Virus record (IMG/VR): IMGVR_UViG_3300025892_000010
Origin: a virus
Length of the DNA: 64,000 bases
Strand: one strand, 5' to 3'
The position numbers and the translations under genes are program-made. Below the pieces are notes generated by a model. It did no database searches and was not told where the DNA came from. It saw only the letters and a program-made list of their open reading frames with translations. Positions 9,208-17,241 of this stretch are shown in pieces; positions within the stretch are counted from its first letter, which is position 1, and every line of letters begins with the position of its first letter.

Positions 9208-11037
9208 TTATTGTAATGATTTCAAAGCAGCTATTTCTGCCTGTAAAGTATTTATTCGTGTTGACACCCTAGCTAGAGCATTCATTTGAACAGCAATTGG
9301 GTCATTACTTATATAGACATTTAAGGATGCCTCTTTATATATTTGTTGCTGTTCTAATATATTTAGTTTTTCAAATAACTCTAGGTTACCATCAGGAATT
9401 GTTCCACCGTTTAATCTTTTGTTCTTATATGCCGTTAAATCTGGTGCATTTGAAGATAACCCTGCTGATATTACTAAAGAAGTTGCTTGTAGTTTTTGGT
9501 CAACTCTTTTTAATTTAGAATTTATTTTTGCAATAATTCTTTCTACTTTTTTACCTATGCTGTCAATGTCGGTAGTGGCAATCTTCCTGTCCGAGACAGA
9601 TACATCTGTCTCATCTTCCACAACTTCGCCATCACTCTCCGTCTCCTTTTGTCCTTCTGTTTCCTTATCTTCAACCACCTCTGGTTCATTAGATACAACA
9701 TCACTCTCTTGTCCTTCCGGCTTTGTTGTTTTTTCATCTGTTGATAAAGTTTCCTCTGTCTTAACGGTTTCTGTTGTAAGTTCTTCATTAGTAGCATTTG
9801 GTTCTTCCTTTATGTTAGATTCTTCGGTTGTTTTTGACTCTATCATATCGTTATTTTCTACTTCAAAATTACTCGTCATTGTCTCTTCTTCTTTAAATTC
9901 TTCCATCTTCGGTTCTTCCATCATAATTTCTGGTTCATTTAAACTAGCAATTTCATTCATCATATCACCACCTAATTCTTTCATCATACTATCGCCTAAC
10001 TCCTCAAAAAATTGTTGTTCAGTAATACCTTCAACTTTTAATTCTTGTTTAAAATCTTGTACTAGATTATTGGTTTCTATAAAATCTGTAAATTGCATTT
10101 CTACAAATTCTTCAAACTTTACTTCTTCTATTTTACCAAGGTCATCTTCAACTATAACCTCAAATTTTATTTCCTCTATTTTTACTTCTTCCATTTTATC
10201 TATTTCTTTAAATGCGTCATCAACTTTATTATCTAAATCTAGGAATAAATCTTTACCATCAGAGGTTTTTAAATCAACTGCGTCTGCAATATCATTACCT
10301 GCGTCTGTACAAGTTCCTAATTCTGAGCAAGGTGTAATTGTTGTAGTGTTAACACCAGCAGTTGTAATAGATAACTGAACATTATCTACATCTGGTCCCC
10401 AATGGGCACCATCATTACCTGTGCCAGCTGTATTATTATAAACTTCAGCTCTTATTGTAAAATCTGTTTGTGTATTTGCATTGTGAGTATAACTATCAGT
10501 TTGATTATTCCATTGACCACTATTCGTTGACCTATTCGGGTCGTAGTCATTTATATTTCTTGTTTGTGTAGTTACCGTACCATCACCGGCTGTGATAGTT
10601 TGTTTAAGTGTTAGTGTGTTTTCAACACTATTCCAAAACCAAATGTCTGCTGACATTGTTGAAGTAAAACCCTCATTGATTTGTGATTGTGTTAAATGAC
10701 TATCGCCAACTAAATCTACATCTTGGTAAATACTACCATTTGGGTCGCCTTCAAATGCTAAAACACCACCTGAAGTATTTTGTCCTGATTGAGTTGAACC
10801 TGTTGTGGAGGTGTGGCCTTGACCGACATCACCTGAAATTGTCCAACCGTTTGAGTTGTAACCAGATGTTCCGAAAGTTGAGTTTGTTAAGACGTTGCCT
10901 GTGGTTGTTCCTGCTGTAGATGTAGTACAGGTACGGTCACCAAGGTCGTTGGTTGTACAGGTCTCTGCCTTACTTACGTTTAGAAAAGTCGTAAGGGTTA
11001 AGGCTATGACCAAACTTATAAACTTTATAACTTGCAT
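9208..11037 (-). CDS. Exported protein: signal peptide, beta-rich (CBM-like) domain, acidic linker, coiled coil
   Basis: MQVIKFISLVIALTLTTFLNVSKA signal; Cys pairs; NSTF..GW..YQDVDL..GPDVDNVQL pattern. Confidence 0.65.
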   Translation of the reverse strand: MQVIKFISLVIALTLTTFLNVSKAETCTTNDLGDRTCTTSTAGTTTGNVLTNSTFGTSGYNSNGWTISGDVGQGHTSTTGSTQSGQNTSGGVLAFEGDPNGSIYQDVDLVGDSHLTQSQINEGFTSTMSADIWFWNSVENTLTLKQTITAGDGTVTTQTRNINDYDPNRSTNSGQWNNQTDSYTHNANTQTDFTIRAEVYNNTAGTGNDGAHWGPDVDNVQLSITTAGVNTTTITPCSELGTCTDAGNDIADAVDLKTSDGKDLFLDLDNKVDDAFKEIDKMEEVKIEEIKFEVIVEDDLGKIEEVKFEEFVEMQFTDFIETNNLVQDFKQELKVEGITEQQFFEELGDSMMKELGGDMMNEIASLNEPEIMMEEPKMEEFKEEETMTSNFEVENNDMIESKTTEESNIKEEPNATNEELTTETVKTEETLSTDEKTTKPEGQESDVVSNEPEVVEDKETEGQKETESDGEVVEDETDVSVSDRKIATTDIDSIGKKVERIIAKINSKLKRVDQKLQATSLVISAGLSSNAPDLTAYKNKRLNGGTIPDGNLELFEKLNILEQQQIYKEASLNVYISNDPIAVQMNALARVSTRINTLQAEIAALKSLQ

Positions 11038-11086
11038 ATGCTACAAGGCAACTCCAAATAAGCCAATTAATAGTACCGTAATCCAT
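10970..11086 (-). CDS. Possible 38-aa membrane peptide overlapping the start of the 609-aa gene
   Basis: MDYGTINWLIWSCLVAYASYKVYKFGHSLNPYDFSKRK; AGGA upstream. Confidence 0.35.
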   Translation of the reverse strand: MDYGTINWLIWSCLVAYASYKVYKFGHSLNPYDFSKRK

Positions 11087-11099
11087 AAATTATTTATTC

Positions 11100-11873
11100 C
11101 TACTTCGGTGGATTTTGTTTCATCTCCAGGCTTTTTTTTTTCGATTCTATATCAGCAGCCTTATCTACTTCTTTCCACTCTTTATTAGATTTTTTTTCTT
11201 CTATCTTTTTTAATTTTTCTTGTACAACTTTTAATTCTTCTTGTCTAGCAATCTCATCTTTCTTTGCTTGAATTTTGTCTGCTTTCTGTACAACTTTTAA
11301 TCTCTTTGTATAGATGTCATAATCAGGTCTTAACTTATTGTATTTTGACCATTGTTCAGTTGCAGCCTTACCAATTTTACCTTCAAACGGACAAGGTGTA
11401 CCTGATTGTTCCATTGCAAAGAAAACTCTAGGATCCTGACATAAAATTGACACAGCAGCCACTTTCATACCAAGGTCATTTAAGACTTTAGATAATTTTA
11501 TACGTTCACAATTTTCGTCTGTTCTATATGAACCAGCAGATATACCTAAACCAAATGAAGACACACCACCTGACATACCAACCACACATAAATCCTGTGA
11601 CATTGCTGACATACTAGGTGCTGAAGATGAATTTACAACTCTTTGGTCACCTGTATAGGCGTTTGTTGTACTATTAGATGTGGTATTGGAAGACGAACCA
11701 CTAGCGTAAGTAGTAGTTGATTCTTGGCTATATCCACCAGAAATAGTGGTGTTAGAACCCGAAGTTGTTGTTTGTGTGTTGGTCGTGGCACCATTTGAAG
11801 TGGTGTCCGCAAGTGTCAAGTGTGTTAGTCCCATAACGAAACATATTATAAGACCGATTAAAGTCTTGTTCAT
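11100..11873 (-). CDS. Exported Cys/Gly-rich protein with possible -1 frameshift extension to 11041
   Basis: Signal MNKTLIGLIICFVMGLTHLTLA, T/S/N-rich stalk, four Cys in the mature part, A10 run near the 3' end. Confidence 0.7.
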   Translation of the reverse strand: MNKTLIGLIICFVMGLTHLTLADTTSNGATTNTQTTTSGSNTTISGGYSQESTTTYASGSSSNTTSNSTTNAYTGDQRVVNSSSAPSMSAMSQDLCVVGMSGGVSSFGLGISAGSYRTDENCERIKLSKVLNDLGMKVAAVSILCQDPRVFFAMEQSGTPCPFEGKIGKAATEQWSKYNKLRPDYDIYTKRLKVVQKADKIQAKKDEIARQEELKVVQEKLKKIEEKKSNKEWKEVDKAADIESKKKSLEMKQNPPK

Positions 11874-11952: not shown

Positions 11953-11960
11953 TATTTATA
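11953..11960 (-). promoter_or_regulatory. T4-type late promoter
   Basis: TATAAATA in the intergenic gap. Confidence 0.7.
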
Positions 11961-12191: not shown

Positions 12192-12649
12192 TAGTGTGCG
12201 TCTCCGTTACCGTTCTTATAGACAATCTCTCTGTCTGCGTCTTTTAGTTTTTCAATATCTTCTTTAGCCTTAATCATTTGTTCTTTTAAGAAACCGATTT
12301 CTAATTTGTTGTTCATCATACCTTCAATGTGTTCTTCCATCTTTTCCACGGTCTTATATAAATCCTCAATCAACATAAATTGCTCGGAATCGGCAGGTAA
12401 ACTACCCATTTCACCTCTTGGCCATTTAATTCTAAACTCTGTATTCTTTTCCAAGTCAACTACTAACATTTCTGTTGCTTGTACTAAATCTTTTTCTAAT
12501 AATGTTATTTTAGTTTCTGATATGTTTAGGCGTTCTACTATGCCGAAATAACTCCACACTCCGACAGCCACGGCTCCGATTATGGCCAGCATATTCCGGA
12601 TTGGCATTGCAACAGCTGTGTTGTCATCTACTGATATTGGTTTACTCAT
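12191..12649 (-). CDS. Membrane-anchored coiled-coil protein
   Basis: TM MLAIIGAVAVGVWSYFGIV followed by heptads. Confidence 0.6.
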   Translation of the reverse strand: MSKPISVDDNTAVAMPIRNMLAIIGAVAVGVWSYFGIVERLNISETKITLLEKDLVQATEMLVVDLEKNTEFRIKWPRGEMGSLPADSEQFMLIEDLYKTVEKMEEHIEGMMNNKLEIGFLKEQMIKAKEDIEKLKDADREIVYKNGNGDAH

Positions 12650-13031
12650 CTTTTATATCTTCACTTTCATAGTATTCTTTATATTTATCTAACAAATCAT
12701 TTGTAATCTTCAACTGATTTCGGATTCTAGCAAAGTTCTTAGCCAAGAGTTCAAAGTCTTTATCTGTAAGTCCCCATAACACCGGGTCAATGCCTGATTC
12801 CTCTAGCTTTTTGAACACTTCCTCGGCGTTCTCACTAGTTATAATTATCCATTTTAAATTCTCTAATTCAAGTGGTGTGGGTTTGTTCAAATTGAGTTTT
12901 TCCCTCGGTACCTCTTGCTTAAATATCTCTAACTGCTTTACACCTGAGCAACCTGATAAGAATATACACAGCATTAATGGTACTGCTATTATCCAGGCAA
13001 GTCTGTATGTTTTATCTTTAGTATGGGACAT
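12642..13031 (-). CDS. Lipoprotein, o-spanin (Rz1-like)
   Basis: Lipobox FLSG-C after a hydrophobic stretch; start MSHTK overlaps the 3' end of the upstream gene. Confidence 0.65.
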   Translation of the reverse strand: MSHTKDKTYRLAWIIAVPLMLCIFLSGCSGVKQLEIFKQEVPREKLNLNKPTPLELENLKWIIITSENAEEVFKKLEESGIDPVLWGLTDKDFELLAKNFARIRNQLKITNDLLDKYKEYYESEDIKDE

Positions 13032-13488
13032 AATTTGGATTTGCAATACTAGGACACTCTGAATTAATTTCAGACTTCTTTGTAGCATTCTTTTCCTCAT
13101 CTGTTAAAGGTGAGCCACTAGCAATCTCTATACATCTTGTCGCCAATGCACTTGCACCGTTTGTTATTCGTTCAATAGATTCTGTTCTCTGTATGGCTAA
13201 CTTACCAACGTCTCTATTTTTTTTATTAAATCTCTTATCTAAATCTTCTAAATCTTTTTTAAGTACACTTACTAACTCATTCATCTTATTGTTAGCGTCT
13301 AGTATTTTCTTAAAATCTATCTTTTGATTTTCTATAAGTTCTTTCTGCTCTGATACAGCAGATTCTAATTTAATTTGATTTGCTTTTAACGTTGCGTTAT
13401 CAGCTCTTAATTTAAATACATAGGCGCCGGCGCCGGCAAGGCCGGCAACCATAACACCTATCATAATCATTCTCATACTACCAAACAT
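13018..13488 (-). CDS. i-spanin (Rz-like)
   Basis: N-terminal TM, long coiled coil, C-terminal Cys; overlaps the lipoprotein gene. Confidence 0.65.
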   Translation of the reverse strand: MFGSMRMIMIGVMVAGLAGAGAYVFKLRADNATLKANQIKLESAVSEQKELIENQKIDFKKILDANNKMNELVSVLKKDLEDLDKRFNKKNRDVGKLAIQRTESIERITNGASALATRCIEIASGSPLTDEEKNATKKSEINSECPSIANPNYVPY

Positions 13489-13601: not shown

Positions 13602-14186
13602 TTAATCTCCTATTTTTGCGTTTCTTTTTCTATGACCATTCCACGCAACAAAGCCACCTGCTCTCAATGACCAGTATGCTAGATAATTCATAAGATAAAA
13701 ACCGTTAACATTAATGTTTATATCTCTAAAGATTTCGTCTGCTCTTTTTTGAGATATTTTACCTAACGTATCTCTTTTATTTTCTCTTAACAAAGTTTCA
13801 TACTTGTAAGCATAGTCGTGTACAAGACCACCTATTAGTAATACACCAACTGGTGAGAAAAATGTTCTTAAAAATTTTGGTATACTTGCACCATCAAATT
13901 TAAAGCCAGCAGGTATTACATATTTGTTTCCGTTTAACACGTAAGTAAAATCGTTTACTAGTTGCCAATTTCTAGTTCCTAATAACCACATTACTATTGC
14001 TTTAAAAAAACCTTTGCCTTTTGTTTTTATAGGTAAAGGTTTTAAATCTGGCATTGCTGTGTATGCGAAAGTATAACATTTAGGTCTCTTTCTATCAAAC
14101 AAGTTGATAGCAAAACCTAATATTACAAACGCAATTAACAATGACCATTGCCAAAACTTCATTGCTAAACCCATTAATAGTTCCAT
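13602..14186 (-). CDS. DUF1353-family protein with N-terminal TM
   Basis: PAGFKFDGASIP...HDYAY...RADEIF. Confidence 0.75.
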   Translation of the reverse strand: MELLMGLAMKFWQWSLLIAFVILGFAINLFDRKRPKCYTFAYTAMPDLKPLPIKTKGKGFFKAIVMWLLGTRNWQLVNDFTYVLNGNKYVIPAGFKFDGASIPKFLRTFFSPVGVLLIGGLVHDYAYKYETLLRENKRDTLGKISQKRADEIFRDININVNGFYLMNYLAYWSLRAGGFVAWNGHRKRNAKIGD

Positions 14187-14187
14187 A

Positions 14188-14727
14188 TTAATCCTTACTT
14201 TTTTTATTTGTATCTATATATGTCTGGTAAATCTTATGAGCCTGACCTAGATTTTTTTTCTTTTCAGGATCCTTTGCTCTCTCACTTGCAACCTTGGCTC
14301 TTTGCGACATTGCAATTGCAGCCTGCATTTTGTGAGCGTGTGTTTTACCAGAGTTCTTAATCTTACTTACAGATTTTCTAGCAGTTTCGCCATCTGTAAA
14401 ACCTAAACCGTGTATTGTACCTTTAGGATTTTCATCTGTATATAAATTTTTATCTTCTTTAATACCTAATCTTTTTTGTACTCTTTCAATTTCTTTTTTA
14501 ATTTGTTTTTGTTTTTGAGAACCTGGCATTACTGACATTGCTTGTCTTACAAGTTTGTAATATAAAGCTTTGTCTTTTAAATCATATTCTTTATTTGCAT
14601 TAATACCTACACTCCTTTTTGTCTTATATTGAGCGCCTTTAGGTGGCGTATCACCTAAACTAGCAATGGGAGCTAAACTATTAACACCATTACTAAAGCC
14701 TGTTATATATTCTTTTAGAGTCTTCAT
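14188..14727 (-). CDS. Putative internal head protein, modular
   Basis: MKTLKEYI N-terminus; basic domain LYTDENPKGTIHGLGF. Confidence 0.55.
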   Translation of the reverse strand: MKTLKEYITGFSNGVNSLAPIASLGDTPPKGAQYKTKRSVGINANKEYDLKDKALYYKLVRQAMSVMPGSQKQKQIKKEIERVQKRLGIKEDKNLYTDENPKGTIHGLGFTDGETARKSVSKIKNSGKTHAHKMQAAIAMSQRAKVASERAKDPEKKKNLGQAHKIYQTYIDTNKKSKD

Positions 14728-15890: not shown

Positions 15891-16328
15891 TTACACTAAT
15901 TTAGCGTAAACTTTAGACATTCCTGTTTTTAACGTTTCGTACTCTACTTGAAGTTTCAAACCACCTTCTTTTTTATGAGAAATACCATCATCATTAATAT
16001 CAGAACCATCTACGTCCTTACCAAATCTTCCTCCACCAAATTTTACTTCGGTTGTAAAGTTACCTTTTTCACCAGTAGTTTCTTGAACAGGTACAAATAG
16101 ACCTATTCTCATTAAATTATTTCTTATTTCTTCAACAGCTGTCTGAGCAGACATATATTCTTTGCTCGCTGTTCCACCAAGAAATGCATTAACTCTTTTT
16201 AAAACTTCCGGGTCTTGTATGTTGTGAACACCAATAGAACCATCTTCAAAAGAAGCTGCGTCAGGTGTACCAACGTGGCCGCCATCAAGACTTTCTTTGA
16301 TGTTTATGTGTTGTTTAAAAGTTTTCAT
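15891..16328 (-). CDS. Putative internal head protein
   Basis: MKTFKQHINIKE N-terminus. Confidence 0.6.
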   Translation of the reverse strand: MKTFKQHINIKESLDGGHVGTPDAASFEDGSIGVHNIQDPEVLKRVNAFLGGTASKEYMSAQTAVEEIRNNLMRIGLFVPVQETTGEKGNFTTEVKFGGGRFGKDVDGSDINDDGISHKKEGGLKLQVEYETLKTGMSKVYAKLV

Positions 16329-16483
16329 TACTCTTCTTCCTTGTTTTTTTCTTCTTTGTCTTCAGATTTTTTTTTAGTTTTCATACTAGCCATAGGTTTA
16401 TTAGTACCAAGACCAGGACCTAAAATATCTTCCTCAAAGTCTTTCAAATTTTCATCTTCTATAAAAGATTTAAATTTTTTCAT
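16328..16483 (-). CDS. 51-aa charged peptide, putative head cargo
   Basis: Hand-translated MKKFKSFIEDENLKDFEED...; TAATG coupling. Confidence 0.55.
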   Translation of the reverse strand: MKKFKSFIEDENLKDFEEDILGPGLGTNKPMASMKTKKKSEDKEEKNKEEE

Positions 16484-16717: not shown

Positions 16718-17176
16718 TTACGCTGTCGTACCAGTATTTGCTAAAATGTTCCAAGAACCATTTTTAAAAAAACATACGGCAGTTTGACCTGCACCAGATA
16801 ATACTATACTAGTATGACCTCGTAAGTTTGCCGGTGTAATTGTAGCATTGTTAGAACCAGTTGATGATGTATTCATAAAAATTTTGATTTGACCATCTGC
16901 ACCATTAGCTAATGTAATAGTACCTGCTTGGTTTGTTGCGTTGATTTCAGTAACCGCTGAGGTAACATCAGCCGCTAAAACTGAAGAACCATCTAACGAT
17001 AGTTGTTGTGAAGCTTGTTTCAATCCTAACCAAGTTGGTATGTTATTGAATATAGAAGCTGCATTTACTTTTTTATTGATTGGTGTTCCAGTCGGGTCAT
17101 CCACAATGTGGAATAAATCTACTGAAGCTAATGCGTTACCTAAATCGGTAAGCTGTGTGATTTTCTTATCTGCCAT
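16718..17176 (-). CDS. Virion structural/fibre-like protein
   Basis: MADKKITQL start after AGGAG; late promoter upstream. Confidence 0.55.
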   Translation of the reverse strand: MADKKITQLTDLGNALASVDLFHIVDDPTGTPINKKVNAASIFNNIPTWLGLKQASQQLSLDGSSVLAADVTSAVTEINATNQAGTITLANGADGQIKIFMNTSSTGSNNATITPANLRGHTSIVLSGAGQTAVCFFKNGSWNILANTGTTA

Positions 17177-17241
17177 TTTTTCTCCTTTAAACCCTTTCGG
17201 GAATTCTACTTGCGCCAGTTGACGCAATCACTTTATTAATA

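What the first reader, a model, noticed from the sequence alone, without database searches (positions are those of the whole stretch)
11035..11141. A10 slippery run: the -1 frame adds a transmembrane anchor and stops in frame one codon before the next gene
Seen: the secreted protein's gene reads TCG AAA AAA AAA AGC and ends at 11100 in frame 0. A -1 shift (or one extra A) at the 10-A run (11132-11141) gives KPGDETKSTEVGINNLWITVLLIGLFGVAL*, a clean C-terminal TM helix. Its TAG (11041-11043) is followed by CAT ATG, the start of the 609-aa exported gene in the same frame. Inference: programmed ribosomal frameshifting, transcriptional slippage or phase variation gives soluble and membrane-anchored isoforms. 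Additional UAG readthrough would give a topologically consistent two-TM fusion; that part is speculative.
Basis: partly seen in the sequence, partly recalled or inferred. Interest (0 to 1): 0.8.

Follow-up and report, generated by a model that had tools for sequence, protein, structure and literature searches.

The report
Conserved frameshift adds membrane anchor
A late gene of an ocean virus that infects the very abundant bacterium SAR11 carries a slippery run of A's at which reading slips back one base, so that one gene most likely makes both a free and a membrane-anchored form of an exported protein, and over a hundred related viruses keep the same arrangement.

Summary
The window comes from a T4-like Pelagibacter myophage; its closest cultured relative is phage Mosig. 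The gene at 11873..11100 (- strand) encodes an exported protein. It holds an A10 run 39 nt before its stop, and the -1 frame from that run encodes a 30-aa tail ending in a transmembrane helix.

This is not an assembly error, and phase variation is unlikely.
- Of 173 distinct homologous loci, 102 have an in-phase A_AAA_AAN heptamer (runs of A6 to A10) followed by a -1 tail ending in a TM helix.
- None of these -1 ORFs has its own start codon.
- Only one lineage of four loci carries the tail in frame 0, and that tail is homologous to a -1 tail in its relatives.
- In-frame C-terminal TM helices also occur in distant family members.

Short runs are always A_AAA_AAG. They come with a Shine-Dalgarno-like motif about 10 nt upstream, plus a hairpin or an adjacent stop, as in dnaX. 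Long runs such as the window's lack these signals, which fits RNA-polymerase slippage.

The UAG-readthrough fusion is not supported. The protein's function is unknown and its fold has no solved relative. A conserved, unannotated 38-aa membrane ORF overlaps the tail.

Earlier scan notes record this frameshift only on this same stretch. They note the surrounding gene module on other genomes.

The parts
11953..11960 (-). T4-type late promoter motif TATAAATA, about 80 nt upstream of the start codon
   Evidence: Read directly from the sequence. Function is inferred from the known T4 late-promoter consensus; it was not tested.
11100..11873 (-). Frame-0 gene for the exported protein (257 aa, ends ...ESKKKSLEMKQNPPK, stop TAG 11102-11100). 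Predicted signal peptide, S/T/N-rich disordered linker, beta-hairpin plus four-Cys helical head, and a roughly 70-residue helix.
   Evidence: 5836 hits; 1594 clusters at 50% identity. AF2 model with pLDDT 80. PHROG 20531, function unknown.
11808..11873 (-). Predicted Sec signal peptide MNKTLIGLIICFVMGLTHLTLA
   Evidence: Hydrophobic N-terminal helix in the sequence and in the model. The cleavage site after LTLA is inferred.
11132..11141 (-). Slippery A10 run (TCG AAA AAA AAA AGC). It contains the in-phase heptamer A_AAA_AAA and is the site of the -1 shift or of a one-A insertion in the mRNA.
   Evidence: An in-phase A_AAA_AAN is conserved in 102 of 173 distinct homologous loci.
11041..11133 (-). 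-1 frame extension KPGDETKSTEVGINNLWITVLLIGLFGVAL plus stop TAG (11043-11041). It would make a 277-aa trans-frame product.
   Evidence: No ATG, GTG or TTG precedes the TM in the -1 ORF in any of the 102 loci. The ORF opens a median of 6 nt before the run.
11044..11088 (-). C-terminal transmembrane helix LWITVLLIGLFGVAL of the -1 product
   Evidence: Kyte-Doolittle 14-residue mean 2.49. Codon-position variability follows the tail frame. The tail is homologous to in-frame C-terminal TM helices in the L275 lineage and in distant family members.
10970..11086 (-). Unannotated 38-aa ORF in the +1 frame (MDYGTINWLIWSCLVAYASYKVYKFGHSLNPYDFSKRK). Its N-terminal TM overlaps the tail and its C-terminal NPYDF motif overlaps the next gene's signal peptide.
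   Evidence: It is conserved as a stand-alone ORF in loci without the frameshift and in podophages HTVC023P and HTVC202P. Variability downstream of the tail stop follows this ORF's frame.
9208..11037 (-). Next gene, a 609-aa exported protein. Its ATG lies 3 nt after the tail's TAG and in the same frame.
   Evidence: The spacing is conserved in 57 of 102 loci.

Best explanation
This is a conserved, programmed -1 recoding site near the 3' end of a late phage gene.

Standard decoding gives a 257-aa protein that is exported by its signal peptide and stays soluble in the periplasm. A -1 shift at the A run replaces the last 10 residues with a 30-residue tail. That tail ends in a hydrophobic helix, giving a 277-aa isoform anchored by its C-terminus, most likely in the inner membrane. 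The roughly 70-residue helix would then act as a stalk that holds the Cys-rich head in the periplasm.

Shown by sequence and comparison:
- the site, the -1 ORF and the TM tail;
- their conservation, always in the -1 frame;
- the absence of any independent start codon in the -1 ORF;
- homology of the tail to in-frame C-termini in relatives.

Inferred:
- that both isoforms are made;
- their ratio;
- the membrane topology.

The mechanism differs among relatives. Lineages with short A_AAA_AAG runs carry dnaX-like stimulators, which points to ribosomal -1 frameshifting. The window's phage has A10 with no Shine-Dalgarno-like motif and no significant downstream structure. That fits RNA-polymerase slippage inserting one A, with or without unstimulated ribosomal slippage on A_AAA_AAA. 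I put this at roughly 55:45 for the window, unresolved.

The protein's function is unknown. From its late promoter, its export, the spanin-like neighbours and the conserved three-gene cassette, I infer a role at the host envelope late in infection.
For: 1. Conservation. Of 173 distinct loci from IMG/VR, JGI and ENA metagenomes plus phage Mosig, 102 have an in-phase A_AAA_AAN heptamer within 75 nt of the frame-0 stop and a -1 tail ending in a TM helix. There are 47 distinct tail ends of at least 8 types. Runs are A6 to A10 in all three phases, and the shift needed is always -1.

2. No other access to the tail. None of the 102 -1 ORFs has ATG, GTG or TTG before the TM, and the ORFs open a median of 6 nt before the run.

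3. The tail is a real C-terminus.
- Four loci from four metagenomes (L275, L276, L277, L279) encode ...EKKKIEEINQWYEAKDNSSSGLPFILLLLGLLVL in frame.
- This aligns at nucleotide level with the -1 tail KKVVNEIDAWYEAKENSWLYFIPLLFGLLLL of their relatives in the L252 group.
- About 19 of the 149 best cluster representatives of the wider family were flagged with a hydrophobic stretch at the extreme C-terminus, in frame; at least one is a frame-broken artefact.

4. Selection on the tail frame.
- In the overlap with the small ORF, column entropy summed by tail-frame codon position 1/2/3 is 9.6/7.7/11.6. That is the usual coding pattern for the tail frame, whereas third positions of the small ORF vary least.
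- Tails with no overlapping ORF keep their peptide. L027 against L317: 24 of 34 residues identical, nucleotide differences 9/3/12 by codon position, pN/pS 0.44. L047 against L053: 9/1/6, pN/pS 0.35.

5. Stimulators.
- All A6 and A7 runs are exactly A_AAA_AAG.
- 16 of 21 short-run sites have AGGAG, GGAGG or AAGGA ending 6-14 nt upstream, against 2 of 63 long-run sites.
- The Mosig type adds a hairpin 6 nt downstream (-11.2 kcal/mol, z = -4.7, 0 of 200 shuffles fold as well).
- The L252, L032 and L131 types have a stop codon directly after AAG.

6. The top 120 protein clusters and all the unusually long ones end with the frame-0 C-terminus.

7. Bacterial RNA polymerase slips efficiently on runs of 9 A or T, and dnaX reaches the same product ratio by ribosomal or transcriptional means in different bacteria (PMC5009743).
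Against: - There is no protein or RNA evidence; everything is comparative.
- In the window's own lineage the tail overlaps a conserved small ORF and a GGAG that may serve the next gene, so part of the tail's conservation there has other causes.
- L325 keeps a hydrophobic -1 frame although its run is broken and a -1 stop intervenes. This shows the overlap alone can maintain such a frame.
- Purifying selection on the non-overlapped tails is modest and rests on few sequences.
- The anchor is short (15-19 hydrophobic residues) and has no charged cytoplasmic tail, so stable inner-membrane anchoring is an assumption.
- 67 of 173 loci (71 non-frameshift loci minus the 4 in-frame ones) have no tail at all, so the anchored form is dispensable in some lineages.
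- The tree used to place these states is weakly resolved (113 columns, FastTree).
Confidence: 0.85

Rival explanations
1. Phase variation: DNA-level slipped-strand changes in the length of the A run switch the phage population between a soluble-only and an anchored-only state. There is no recoding at the RNA or ribosome level.
For: A10 runs are prone to replication slippage. One 1.2-kb ENA contig (L327, about 1x coverage) has A10 where its relatives have A9, which puts a tail of the window's type (...LFGVxL) in frame. One lineage (L275) is fixed in frame.
Against: Among 102 distinct frameshift-type loci from independent assemblies the tail is always in the -1 frame. Close relatives of the window (L002-L004, L093, L095, L097, L100) all have A10 in the same phase, and L098 differs by a substitution, not an indel. 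Thirty-three loci use A6 or A7 heptamers, which are poor substrates for DNA slippage, and these carry Shine-Dalgarno and hairpin or stop stimulators that make sense only for ribosomes.
Confidence: 0.05
2. No recoding: only the soluble protein is made. The hydrophobic -1 frame is a by-product of the overlapping small membrane ORF, of the next gene's signal peptide, and of T-rich sequence in an AT-rich genome.
For: In the window's lineage the tail overlaps the N-terminal TM of a conserved 38-aa ORF. In the L252 and L032 groups it overlaps a hydrophobic start of the next ORF. L325 keeps the hydrophobic -1 frame without access to it. Four of 71 window ORFs have a hydrophobic -1 extension by chance.
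Against: Groups G3 (L047-L057, L181), whose tails end ...FFLI or ...GMII, and G5 (L027, L030, L317), whose tails end ...GIIF or ...FFGVI, have tails with no overlapping ORF. These tails include a conserved hydrophilic segment, KIDSAV.(A/S)INYEYNK.LFKK. The tail is homologous to in-frame C-termini. The in-phase heptamer, the opening of the -1 ORF at the run, and the stimulators have no explanation under this view. Codon-position variability in the overlap follows the tail frame, not the small ORF.
Confidence: 0.07
3. Assembly or sequencing error: the true run is A11 and the protein is simply membrane-anchored.
For: Homopolymers are error-prone in some sequencing chemistries.
Against: The same out-of-frame relation appears in 102 distinct loci from many independent metagenomes and in the cultured phage Mosig, with run lengths from 6 to 10. 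A 100%-identical locus from an independent JGI assembly (L093) also has A10. Errors would not create in-phase A_AAA_AAG sites with Shine-Dalgarno motifs and hairpins.
Confidence: 0.02
4. Frameshift plus UAG readthrough fuses the anchored isoform to the 609-aa protein, giving a two-TM fusion.
For: In the window and in 57 of 102 loci the next ATG lies one codon after the tail stop and in the same frame.
Against: The stop is TAA in 30 of those 57 loci, and in 44 of 102 overall, with TGA in 2. In G3, G5 and the L252 group the next gene is in a different frame or overlaps the tail. No known readthrough context or suppressor was found. The spacing is better explained by the overlap constraints and by possible termination-reinitiation.
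Confidence: 0.01

Closest known systems
E. coli dnaX tau/gamma -1 programmed ribosomal frameshift (A_AAA_AAG, upstream Shine-Dalgarno-like AGGGAG, downstream stem-loop)
   Same: The short-run relatives (Mosig, L252, L032 and L131 types) have the identical heptamer A_AAA_AAG in phase. They have AGGAG, GGAGG or AAGGAG about 10 nt upstream, and a hairpin 6 nt downstream or an adjacent 0-frame stop (PMC5009743). Two products share an N-terminal body and differ at the C-terminus.
   Different: Here the shifted product is the longer one and gains a membrane anchor, whereas in E. coli dnaX the shift truncates. The window's own site is A10 without these stimulators. The gene is an exported phage protein of unknown function, not a replication factor.
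Thermus thermophilus dnaX, and bacterial transcriptional slippage on runs of 9 A or T (also Shigella and endosymbiont poly(A) tracts)
   Same: There is a homopolymer of 9-10 A in the sense strand, no phase requirement and no ribosomal stimulators. Long runs occur in all three phases and 61 of 63 lack a Shine-Dalgarno-like motif. As with dnaX, one protein family seems to reach the same two products by ribosomal or by transcriptional means in different lineages (PMC5009743).
   Different: mRNA heterogeneity was not measured here. The polymerase involved would be the SAR11 host enzyme as redirected by a T4-like phage, whose slippage behaviour is unknown.
Ebola virus GP gene editing (sGP against transmembrane GP by insertion of A at a poly-A/U run)
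   Same: It works like this. The unedited message gives a soluble secreted protein. One extra A at an A run gives a form with a C-terminal transmembrane anchor (PMC5009743).
   Different: Ebola is an RNA virus using its own polymerase, and the shifted part is a large domain. Here it is a DNA phage, the tail is 20-40 residues, and in some lineages the ribosome rather than the polymerase does the shifting. There is no sequence relationship.
Phage recoding cases: lambda G/GT tail assembly chaperone and T7 gene 10A/10B capsid (-1 frameshifts)
   Same: A conserved -1 frameshift near the 3' end of a late phage gene makes a C-terminally extended minor product.
   Different: Those products are cytoplasmic virion-assembly proteins. 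This one is an exported protein, and the extension changes where it resides (soluble or membrane). The family hits only PHROG 20531, of unknown function.
T4 antiholin RI (signal-anchor-release domain gives membrane-tethered and soluble periplasmic forms)
   Same: A T4-like phage periplasmic protein that exists in membrane-tethered and free forms. The comparison concerns the outcome only (PMC11413866 was listed; the rest is my own knowledge).
   Different: RI achieves this post-translationally through an N-terminal SAR domain. Here the two forms would be set at decoding through a C-terminal anchor. No sequence or fold similarity was found.

Membership tests
-1 programmed ribosomal frameshifting (X_XXY_YYZ type, dnaX/IS911-like) | Slippery heptamer X_XXY_YYZ in phase with the 0 frame | tested here: met
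   The window has A_AAA_AAA within TCG AAA AAA AAA AGC. All 102 frameshift-type loci have an in-phase A_AAA_AAN: AAAAAAG in 55, AAAAAAA in 45, AAAAAAT in 2.
-1 programmed ribosomal frameshifting (X_XXY_YYZ type, dnaX/IS911-like) | -1 ORF reachable only from the 0 frame at the site, and conserved among homologs | tested here: met
   None of the 102 loci has a start codon in the -1 ORF before the TM. The ORF opens a median of 6 nt before the run. It is conserved in 102 of 173 distinct loci.
-1 programmed ribosomal frameshifting (X_XXY_YYZ type, dnaX/IS911-like) | Stimulatory elements: an upstream Shine-Dalgarno-like motif and/or 3' structure or an adjacent stop | tested here: not met
   For the window itself there is no strong Shine-Dalgarno-like 5-mer 6-14 nt upstream, and the downstream fold is -3.9 kcal/mol, z = -0.6. 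The feature is met in the short-run relatives: 16 of 21 have the motif, and the Mosig hairpin has z = -4.7.
-1 programmed ribosomal frameshifting (X_XXY_YYZ type, dnaX/IS911-like) | Both the 0-frame and the trans-frame proteins are detected | not testable with these tools
   This needs mass spectrometry, immunoblots or reporters.
Transcriptional slippage (RNA-polymerase realignment on homopolymers) | Homopolymeric run of about 9 or more A/T in the transcribed region | tested here: met
   A10 at 11132-11141. 61 of 102 loci have A9 or A10. The threshold is taken from PMC5009743.
Transcriptional slippage (RNA-polymerase realignment on homopolymers) | The mRNA population is heterogeneous in run length while the DNA is homogeneous | not testable with these tools
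   No read-level RNA or DNA data are available, and no genome is held for this window.
Phase variation by slipped-strand mispairing | Closely related genomes differ in run length so that ON and OFF frames both occur | tested here: not met
   The eight close relatives listed for the window (L002-L004, L093, L095, L097, L098, L100) keep the same frame. The only deviant is a 1x-coverage contig of another sublineage.
Signal-peptide-bearing protein with a C-terminal stop-transfer anchor (type I topology) | N-terminal signal peptide plus a single hydrophobic helix at the C-terminus of the -1 product | tested here: met
   An N-terminal hydrophobic helix (residues 2-20 of the model) and a tail with Kyte-Doolittle 14-residue mean 2.49. 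The actual insertion and orientation are untested, and there is no charged cytoplasmic tail.
Spanins (Rz/Rz1-like), considered because of the neighbouring genes | Match to spanin families, or the i-spanin architecture (N-terminal TM plus periplasmic coiled coil) | tested here: inconclusive
   Pfam gave no hit and PHROGs gave only phrog_20531, of unknown function. The protein has a cleavable signal peptide and a C-terminal rather than N-terminal anchor. Only the long helix resembles a coiled coil. The two ORFs 12642-13100 and 13018-13488, further upstream, hit Rz-like PHROGs weakly (about 1e-7).

The most novel reading that the evidence does not exclude
The frameshift may act as a stoichiometry dial for an undescribed envelope-spanning late module of SAR11 phages. 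The soluble:anchored ratio of the Cys-head/stalk protein would be set by ribosomal frameshifting in some lineages and by RNA-polymerase slippage in others. Ribosomes that shift also read through the start of the overlapping 38-aa membrane ORF and terminate 3 nt before the 609-aa gene's ATG. The shift frequency would then also couple expression of the two partner genes, lowering the small ORF's initiation by occlusion and raising the large protein's by termination-reinitiation. That would make about 150 nt of triple-overlapping code a single regulatory device for lysis timing or superinfection control.
Probability: 0.15. Interest if true: 0.85.

Novelty: new member of a known kind. Interest (0 to 1): 0.7.

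Why it matters
Conserved recoding sites in phages outside the tail-chaperone and capsid cases are rare. In the papers I could search, I found none that switches an exported protein between a soluble and a membrane-anchored form.

This case sits in viruses of SAR11, the most abundant marine bacterium. The protein family is very common in ocean metagenomes: 5836 hits in one search and 1594 clusters at 50% identity in another. Current annotations, including that of the cultured phage Mosig, miss both the anchored isoform and the overlapping 38-aa gene.

Within one family, short heptamers with dnaX-like stimulators alternate with long bare A runs. That offers a natural comparison of ribosomal against transcriptional routes to the same product. 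It can be tested directly in Mosig and in the window's phage if it is in culture.

It also warns gene callers that in AT-rich phage genomes a hypothetical protein ending just after a poly-A run may have a second, longer product.

Tried and rejected
- A DNA pattern scan of IMG/VR for the run plus its downstream context returned only 11 loci, almost all already held, so it added nothing.
- Pfam gave no family for the protein, the 609-aa protein or most neighbours. PHROGs gave only families of unknown function.
- Structure searches found nothing informative.
  - Whole model: Foldseek against the PDB found nothing at E <= 0.001, the ESM Atlas returned only viral hypothetical clusters, and the wide VIA-align search returned only generic coiled-coil matches to the long helix (Z <= 6.6).
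  - Head domain folded alone (pLDDT 81): best Z was 2.8 and Foldseek found nothing.
  - This leaves the function open and does not prove that the fold is new.
- Nei-Gojobori ratios on the small groups G4, G5 and G6 were too noisy to use alone, and frames containing stops gave spurious low ratios.
- The core-domain tree (113 columns, FastTree) is too weakly resolved to count gains and losses beyond 'at least 7 changes, one main clade'.
- No whole genome is held for this window, so genome-wide homopolymer statistics and read-level checks were not possible.
- The literature searches found no earlier report of this site.
- An independent gene starting inside the -1 ORF was considered and rejected, because there is no start codon in any of the 102 loci.
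Full report
**What the window is.** Ribonucleotide reductase, primase and tail-chaperone hits, many small co-oriented ORFs and 32.7% G+C indicate a large phage. The nearest record in the phage collection is Pelagibacter phage Mosig EXVC030M, a T4-like myophage of SAR11. It shows 78% DNA identity over part of the region, and its homolog of the protein is 78% identical.

**The observation.**
- On the - strand the gene reads ...GAT ATA GAA TCG AAA AAA AAA AGC CTG GAG ATG AAA CAA AAT CCA CCG AAG TAG.
- The A10 run is at 11141-11132 and the frame-0 stop at 11102-11100.
- Reading from 11133 in the -1 frame gives KPGDETKSTEVGINNLWITVLLIGLFGVAL and TAG at 11043-11041.
- CAT ATG follows, and that ATG starts the 609-aa ORF (9208-11037) in the same frame.
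- The gene really starts at ATG 11873 (MNKTLIG..., 257 aa), as in its homologs.
- A T4-type late promoter motif TATAAATA lies at 11960-11953.
- This is the only homopolymer of 10 or more bases in 64 kb. Runs of 9 or more are depleted, 2 observed against about 8.6 expected.
- Among 71 ORFs of at least 100 aa on this strand, it is the only one that combines an in-phase A_AAA_AAN near its end with a hydrophobic -1 extension.

In Mosig the annotated homolog ends ...SEKKYIPVENTGGR*. Its DNA reads TCT GAA AAA AAG TAC, which is A_AAA_AAG in phase. The -1 frame is closed by TGA just before the run and open from the run to ...EINKLWITIPLMLFFGVAF*, followed by CCT ATG of the next gene.

I then fetched homologous loci from IMG/VR and from metagenome contigs and classified every distinct one by script. 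Of 173 distinct loci:
- 102 have an in-phase A_AAA_AAN heptamer within 75 nt of the frame-0 stop and a -1 ORF ending in a hydrophobic helix.
- Runs range from A6 to A10 and occur in all three phases. The counts are A6 in 5 loci, A7 in 28, A8 in 8, A9 in 49 and A10 in 12.
- The tail is always one base back.
- There are 47 distinct tail ends of at least eight sequence types, such as ...LFGVAL, ...LFFGVPL, ...ILFFGLPL, ...FILFVFFLI, ...ILFFGIIF, ...LLLLFVGVLI, ...LLFGLLLL and ...LLIGIPAL.
- None of the 102 -1 ORFs contains ATG, GTG or TTG before the helix, and they open a median of 6 nt before the run. The tail can therefore be reached only from frame 0 at the run.
- The 120 best protein clusters in a 5.8-billion-protein collection all end with the frame-0 C-terminus, including the unusually long ones.

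This rules out an assembly error. It also makes DNA-level phase variation unlikely. The window's close relatives L002-L004, L093, L095, L097 and L100 all have A10 in the same phase, and L098 differs by a substitution. The only ...LFGVxL-type tail found in frame comes from a 1.2-kb contig at about 1x coverage.

**The tail is a real C-terminus.**
- Four loci from four metagenomes (L275, L276, L277, L279) encode ...EKKKIEEINQWYEAKDNSSSGLPFILLLLGLLVL* in frame 0 after an A10 run.
- Their relatives in the L252 group have CCT GAA AAA AAG TAG, and in the -1 frame KKVVNEIDAWYEAKENSWLYFIPLLFGLLLL*.
- The two align base for base.
- In an exhaustive search (1594 clusters at 50% identity), about 19 of the 149 best representatives were flagged with a hydrophobic stretch at the extreme C-terminus, in frame; a few flags are artefacts such as P0253. 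A terminal anchor is therefore a native option of this family.
- On a weakly resolved tree of the core domain, the frameshift type fills one clade of 134 rows: 102 frameshift, 28 without a tail and 4 in frame. Deeper branches lack it. The minimum is 7 changes of state.

In the third frame a 38-aa ORF (11086-10970, MDYGTINWLIWSCLVAYASYKVYKFGHSLNPYDFSKRK) overlaps the tail with its own N-terminal hydrophobic segment. Its C-terminal part overlaps the signal peptide of the 609-aa gene.

This ORF is real.
- It stands alone, directly after the upstream gene, in loci without any frameshift (L017, L029, L033, L039).
- It does the same in the cultured podophages HTVC023P and HTVC202P.
- Its NPY(D/N)F motif explains the otherwise odd conservation of LTLTT in the next gene's signal peptide.

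So the hydrophobic -1 frame could have been a by-product of this overlap. Four results argue against that.
- Within the overlap, column entropy summed by tail-frame codon position 1/2/3 is 9.6/7.7/11.6. This is the usual coding pattern for the tail frame, while third positions of the small ORF vary least. Downstream of the tail stop, the pattern switches to the small ORF's frame.
- Groups G3 (L047-L057, L181/L182) and G5 (L027/L030/L317) have the run and the tail with no overlapping ORF, and the next gene lies in another frame.
- Those tails keep their peptide through synonymous and conservative changes. This includes a hydrophilic stretch, KIDSAV.(A/S)INYEYNK.LFKK, where 24 of 34 residues are identical, differences by codon position are 9/3/12 and pN/pS is 0.44.
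- The in-frame homologs described above point the same way.

One counter-example is instructive. L325 has a broken run and a -1 stop yet keeps a mildly hydrophobic -1 frame. The overlap alone can therefore maintain such a frame once access to it is lost.

**Mechanism.** The sites fall into two classes.

Short runs (A6 and A7, 21 distinct sites in about four lineages):
- All are exactly A_AAA_AAG in phase.
- 16 of 21 have AGGAG, GGAGG or AAGGA ending 6-14 nt upstream.
- The Mosig type adds the hairpin CCGGUG-GAGAA-CACCGG 6 nt downstream (-11.2 kcal/mol, z = -4.7, 0 of 200 shuffles fold as well).
- The L252, L032 and L131 types have a 0-frame stop directly after AAG.
- This is the anatomy of the E. 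coli dnaX site and of 'heptamer plus stop' sites (PMC5009743).

Long runs (A8 to A10, 63 sites, including the window):
- Only 2 of 63 have the upstream motif.
- The window's downstream sequence folds no better than shuffles (-3.9 kcal/mol, z = -0.6).

Bacterial RNA polymerase slips efficiently on runs of 9 A or T, and Thermus dnaX uses that route where E. coli uses the ribosome (PMC5009743). The same tail type (...GVLSILFFGLPL) occurs with A7 plus motif plus hairpin (L140, L172) and with a bare A9 (L134-L137 and others), so lineages appear to switch between the two solutions.

For the window I therefore favour insertion of one A by the polymerase. Unstimulated ribosomal slippage on A_AAA_AAA is a close second. 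Sequence alone cannot decide between them.

**What the protein is.**
- The AF2 model (79-sequence alignment, pLDDT 80) shows a signal-peptide helix, a disordered S/T/N-rich linker, and a Gly-rich beta-hairpin.
- It then shows a small helical head with four nearly invariant cysteines, and a single helix of about 70 residues that ends at the shift site.
- The anchored isoform would thus be a head on a stalk rooted in the membrane by its last 15-19 residues.
- Neither the whole model nor the head alone matches a solved structure. The only matches are generic coiled-coil hits to the long helix, with Z <= 6.6.
- Pfam gives nothing, and PHROGs gives only family 20531, of unknown function.
- The gene heads a cassette that is shared by podo- and myo-type pelagiphages: this protein, the 38-aa membrane protein and a large exported protein. 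In the window the cassette sits behind a late promoter and near weak Rz-like spanin hits.
- A role at the host envelope late in infection is a reasonable inference, but it is untested.

**The readthrough idea.** The tail stop is TAG in 56 loci, TAA in 44 and TGA in 2. The spacing 'stop, one codon, ATG' holds in 57 of 102 loci, 30 of them with TAA. Elsewhere the next gene is in another frame or overlaps the tail. There is nothing to support a fusion. Termination-reinitiation onto the 609-aa gene is a more natural reading of the 3-nt spacing and remains speculative.

**Comparison and novelty.**
- In mechanism this is a new case of two known kinds of recoding: dnaX-like -1 frameshifting, and slippage on a poly-A run.
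- In outcome it works like the Ebola virus GP gene, where the unedited message gives a soluble protein and one extra A gives the transmembrane form (PMC5009743).
- I found no report of it, nor of any phage frameshift that adds a membrane anchor to an exported protein, in the searchable literature.
- The Mosig annotation lacks both the extension and the 38-aa ORF.
- Earlier notes of this scan record the A10 tract only on this same stretch. They record the surrounding late exported cassette on this and other genomes.

**Verdict.**
- Confidence that this is programmed recoding producing an anchored isoform is 0.85.
- The mechanism in this particular phage and the protein's function remain open.

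Noticed in passing
window 10970-11086 (- strand): An unannotated 38-aa ORF (N-terminal TM, C-terminal NPYDF..K) in the third frame overlaps the frameshift tail and the signal peptide of the 609-aa gene. It is conserved in myo- and podo-type pelagiphages, and is also absent from the Mosig annotation.
   Followed up: partly
window 10970-11037 (- strand): Dual coding: the LTLTT(F/I)L motif in the 609-aa protein's signal peptide mirrors LNPYDF of the small ORF. Variability by codon position follows the small ORF here, so the signal peptide is the passive partner.
   Followed up: partly
L328 (HTVC023P gp45-gp46) and L330 (HTVC202P gp24-gp25); window 9208-11873: A three-gene cassette is shared by unrelated pelagiphage morphotypes: the Cys-head exported protein, a small NPY(D/N)F membrane protein and a large exported protein. 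The podophage versions have no frameshift site.
   Followed up: partly
L275, L276, L277, L279 (IMG/VR): The lineage with the tail in frame still has an A10 run (GAG AAA AAA AAA ATT). Slippage there would truncate instead of extend, a reversed arrangement like that described for dnaX in different bacteria.
   Followed up: no
L327 (ENA ERZ6049607 contig, 1176 bp, coverage about 1x), 800-812: This is the only ...LFGVxL-type tail found in frame (A10 where relatives have A9). It could be a real variant, a sequencing error, or a slipped transcript if the sample contained RNA.
   Followed up: partly
window 11053-11056 (- strand): The conserved F-G-V codons of the tail (TTT GGA GTT) contain GGAG about 15 nt before the 609-aa gene's ATG. 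This may serve as its ribosome-binding site and add a third constraint on this stretch.
   Followed up: no
window 16367-16375: The only other long homopolymer in the window (T9 on the + strand) lies between ORFs 15891-16328 and 16718-17227, apparently in intergenic sequence.
   Followed up: no
window 14188-14727 and 13602-14186 (- strand): The 179-aa ORF upstream of a tail-assembly-chaperone-like gene (phrog_1158) has an in-phase A_AAA_AAN in its last 75 nt, but its -1 frame stays open for only 4 codons past the stop. It is not an obvious G/GT-type site.
   Followed up: no
L325 and L042 (IMG/VR): Sister loci. L042 has GAA AAA AAC and a weakly hydrophobic -1 tail. L325 has the run broken and a -1 stop before the tail. 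This looks like a recent loss of the frameshift.
   Followed up: partly
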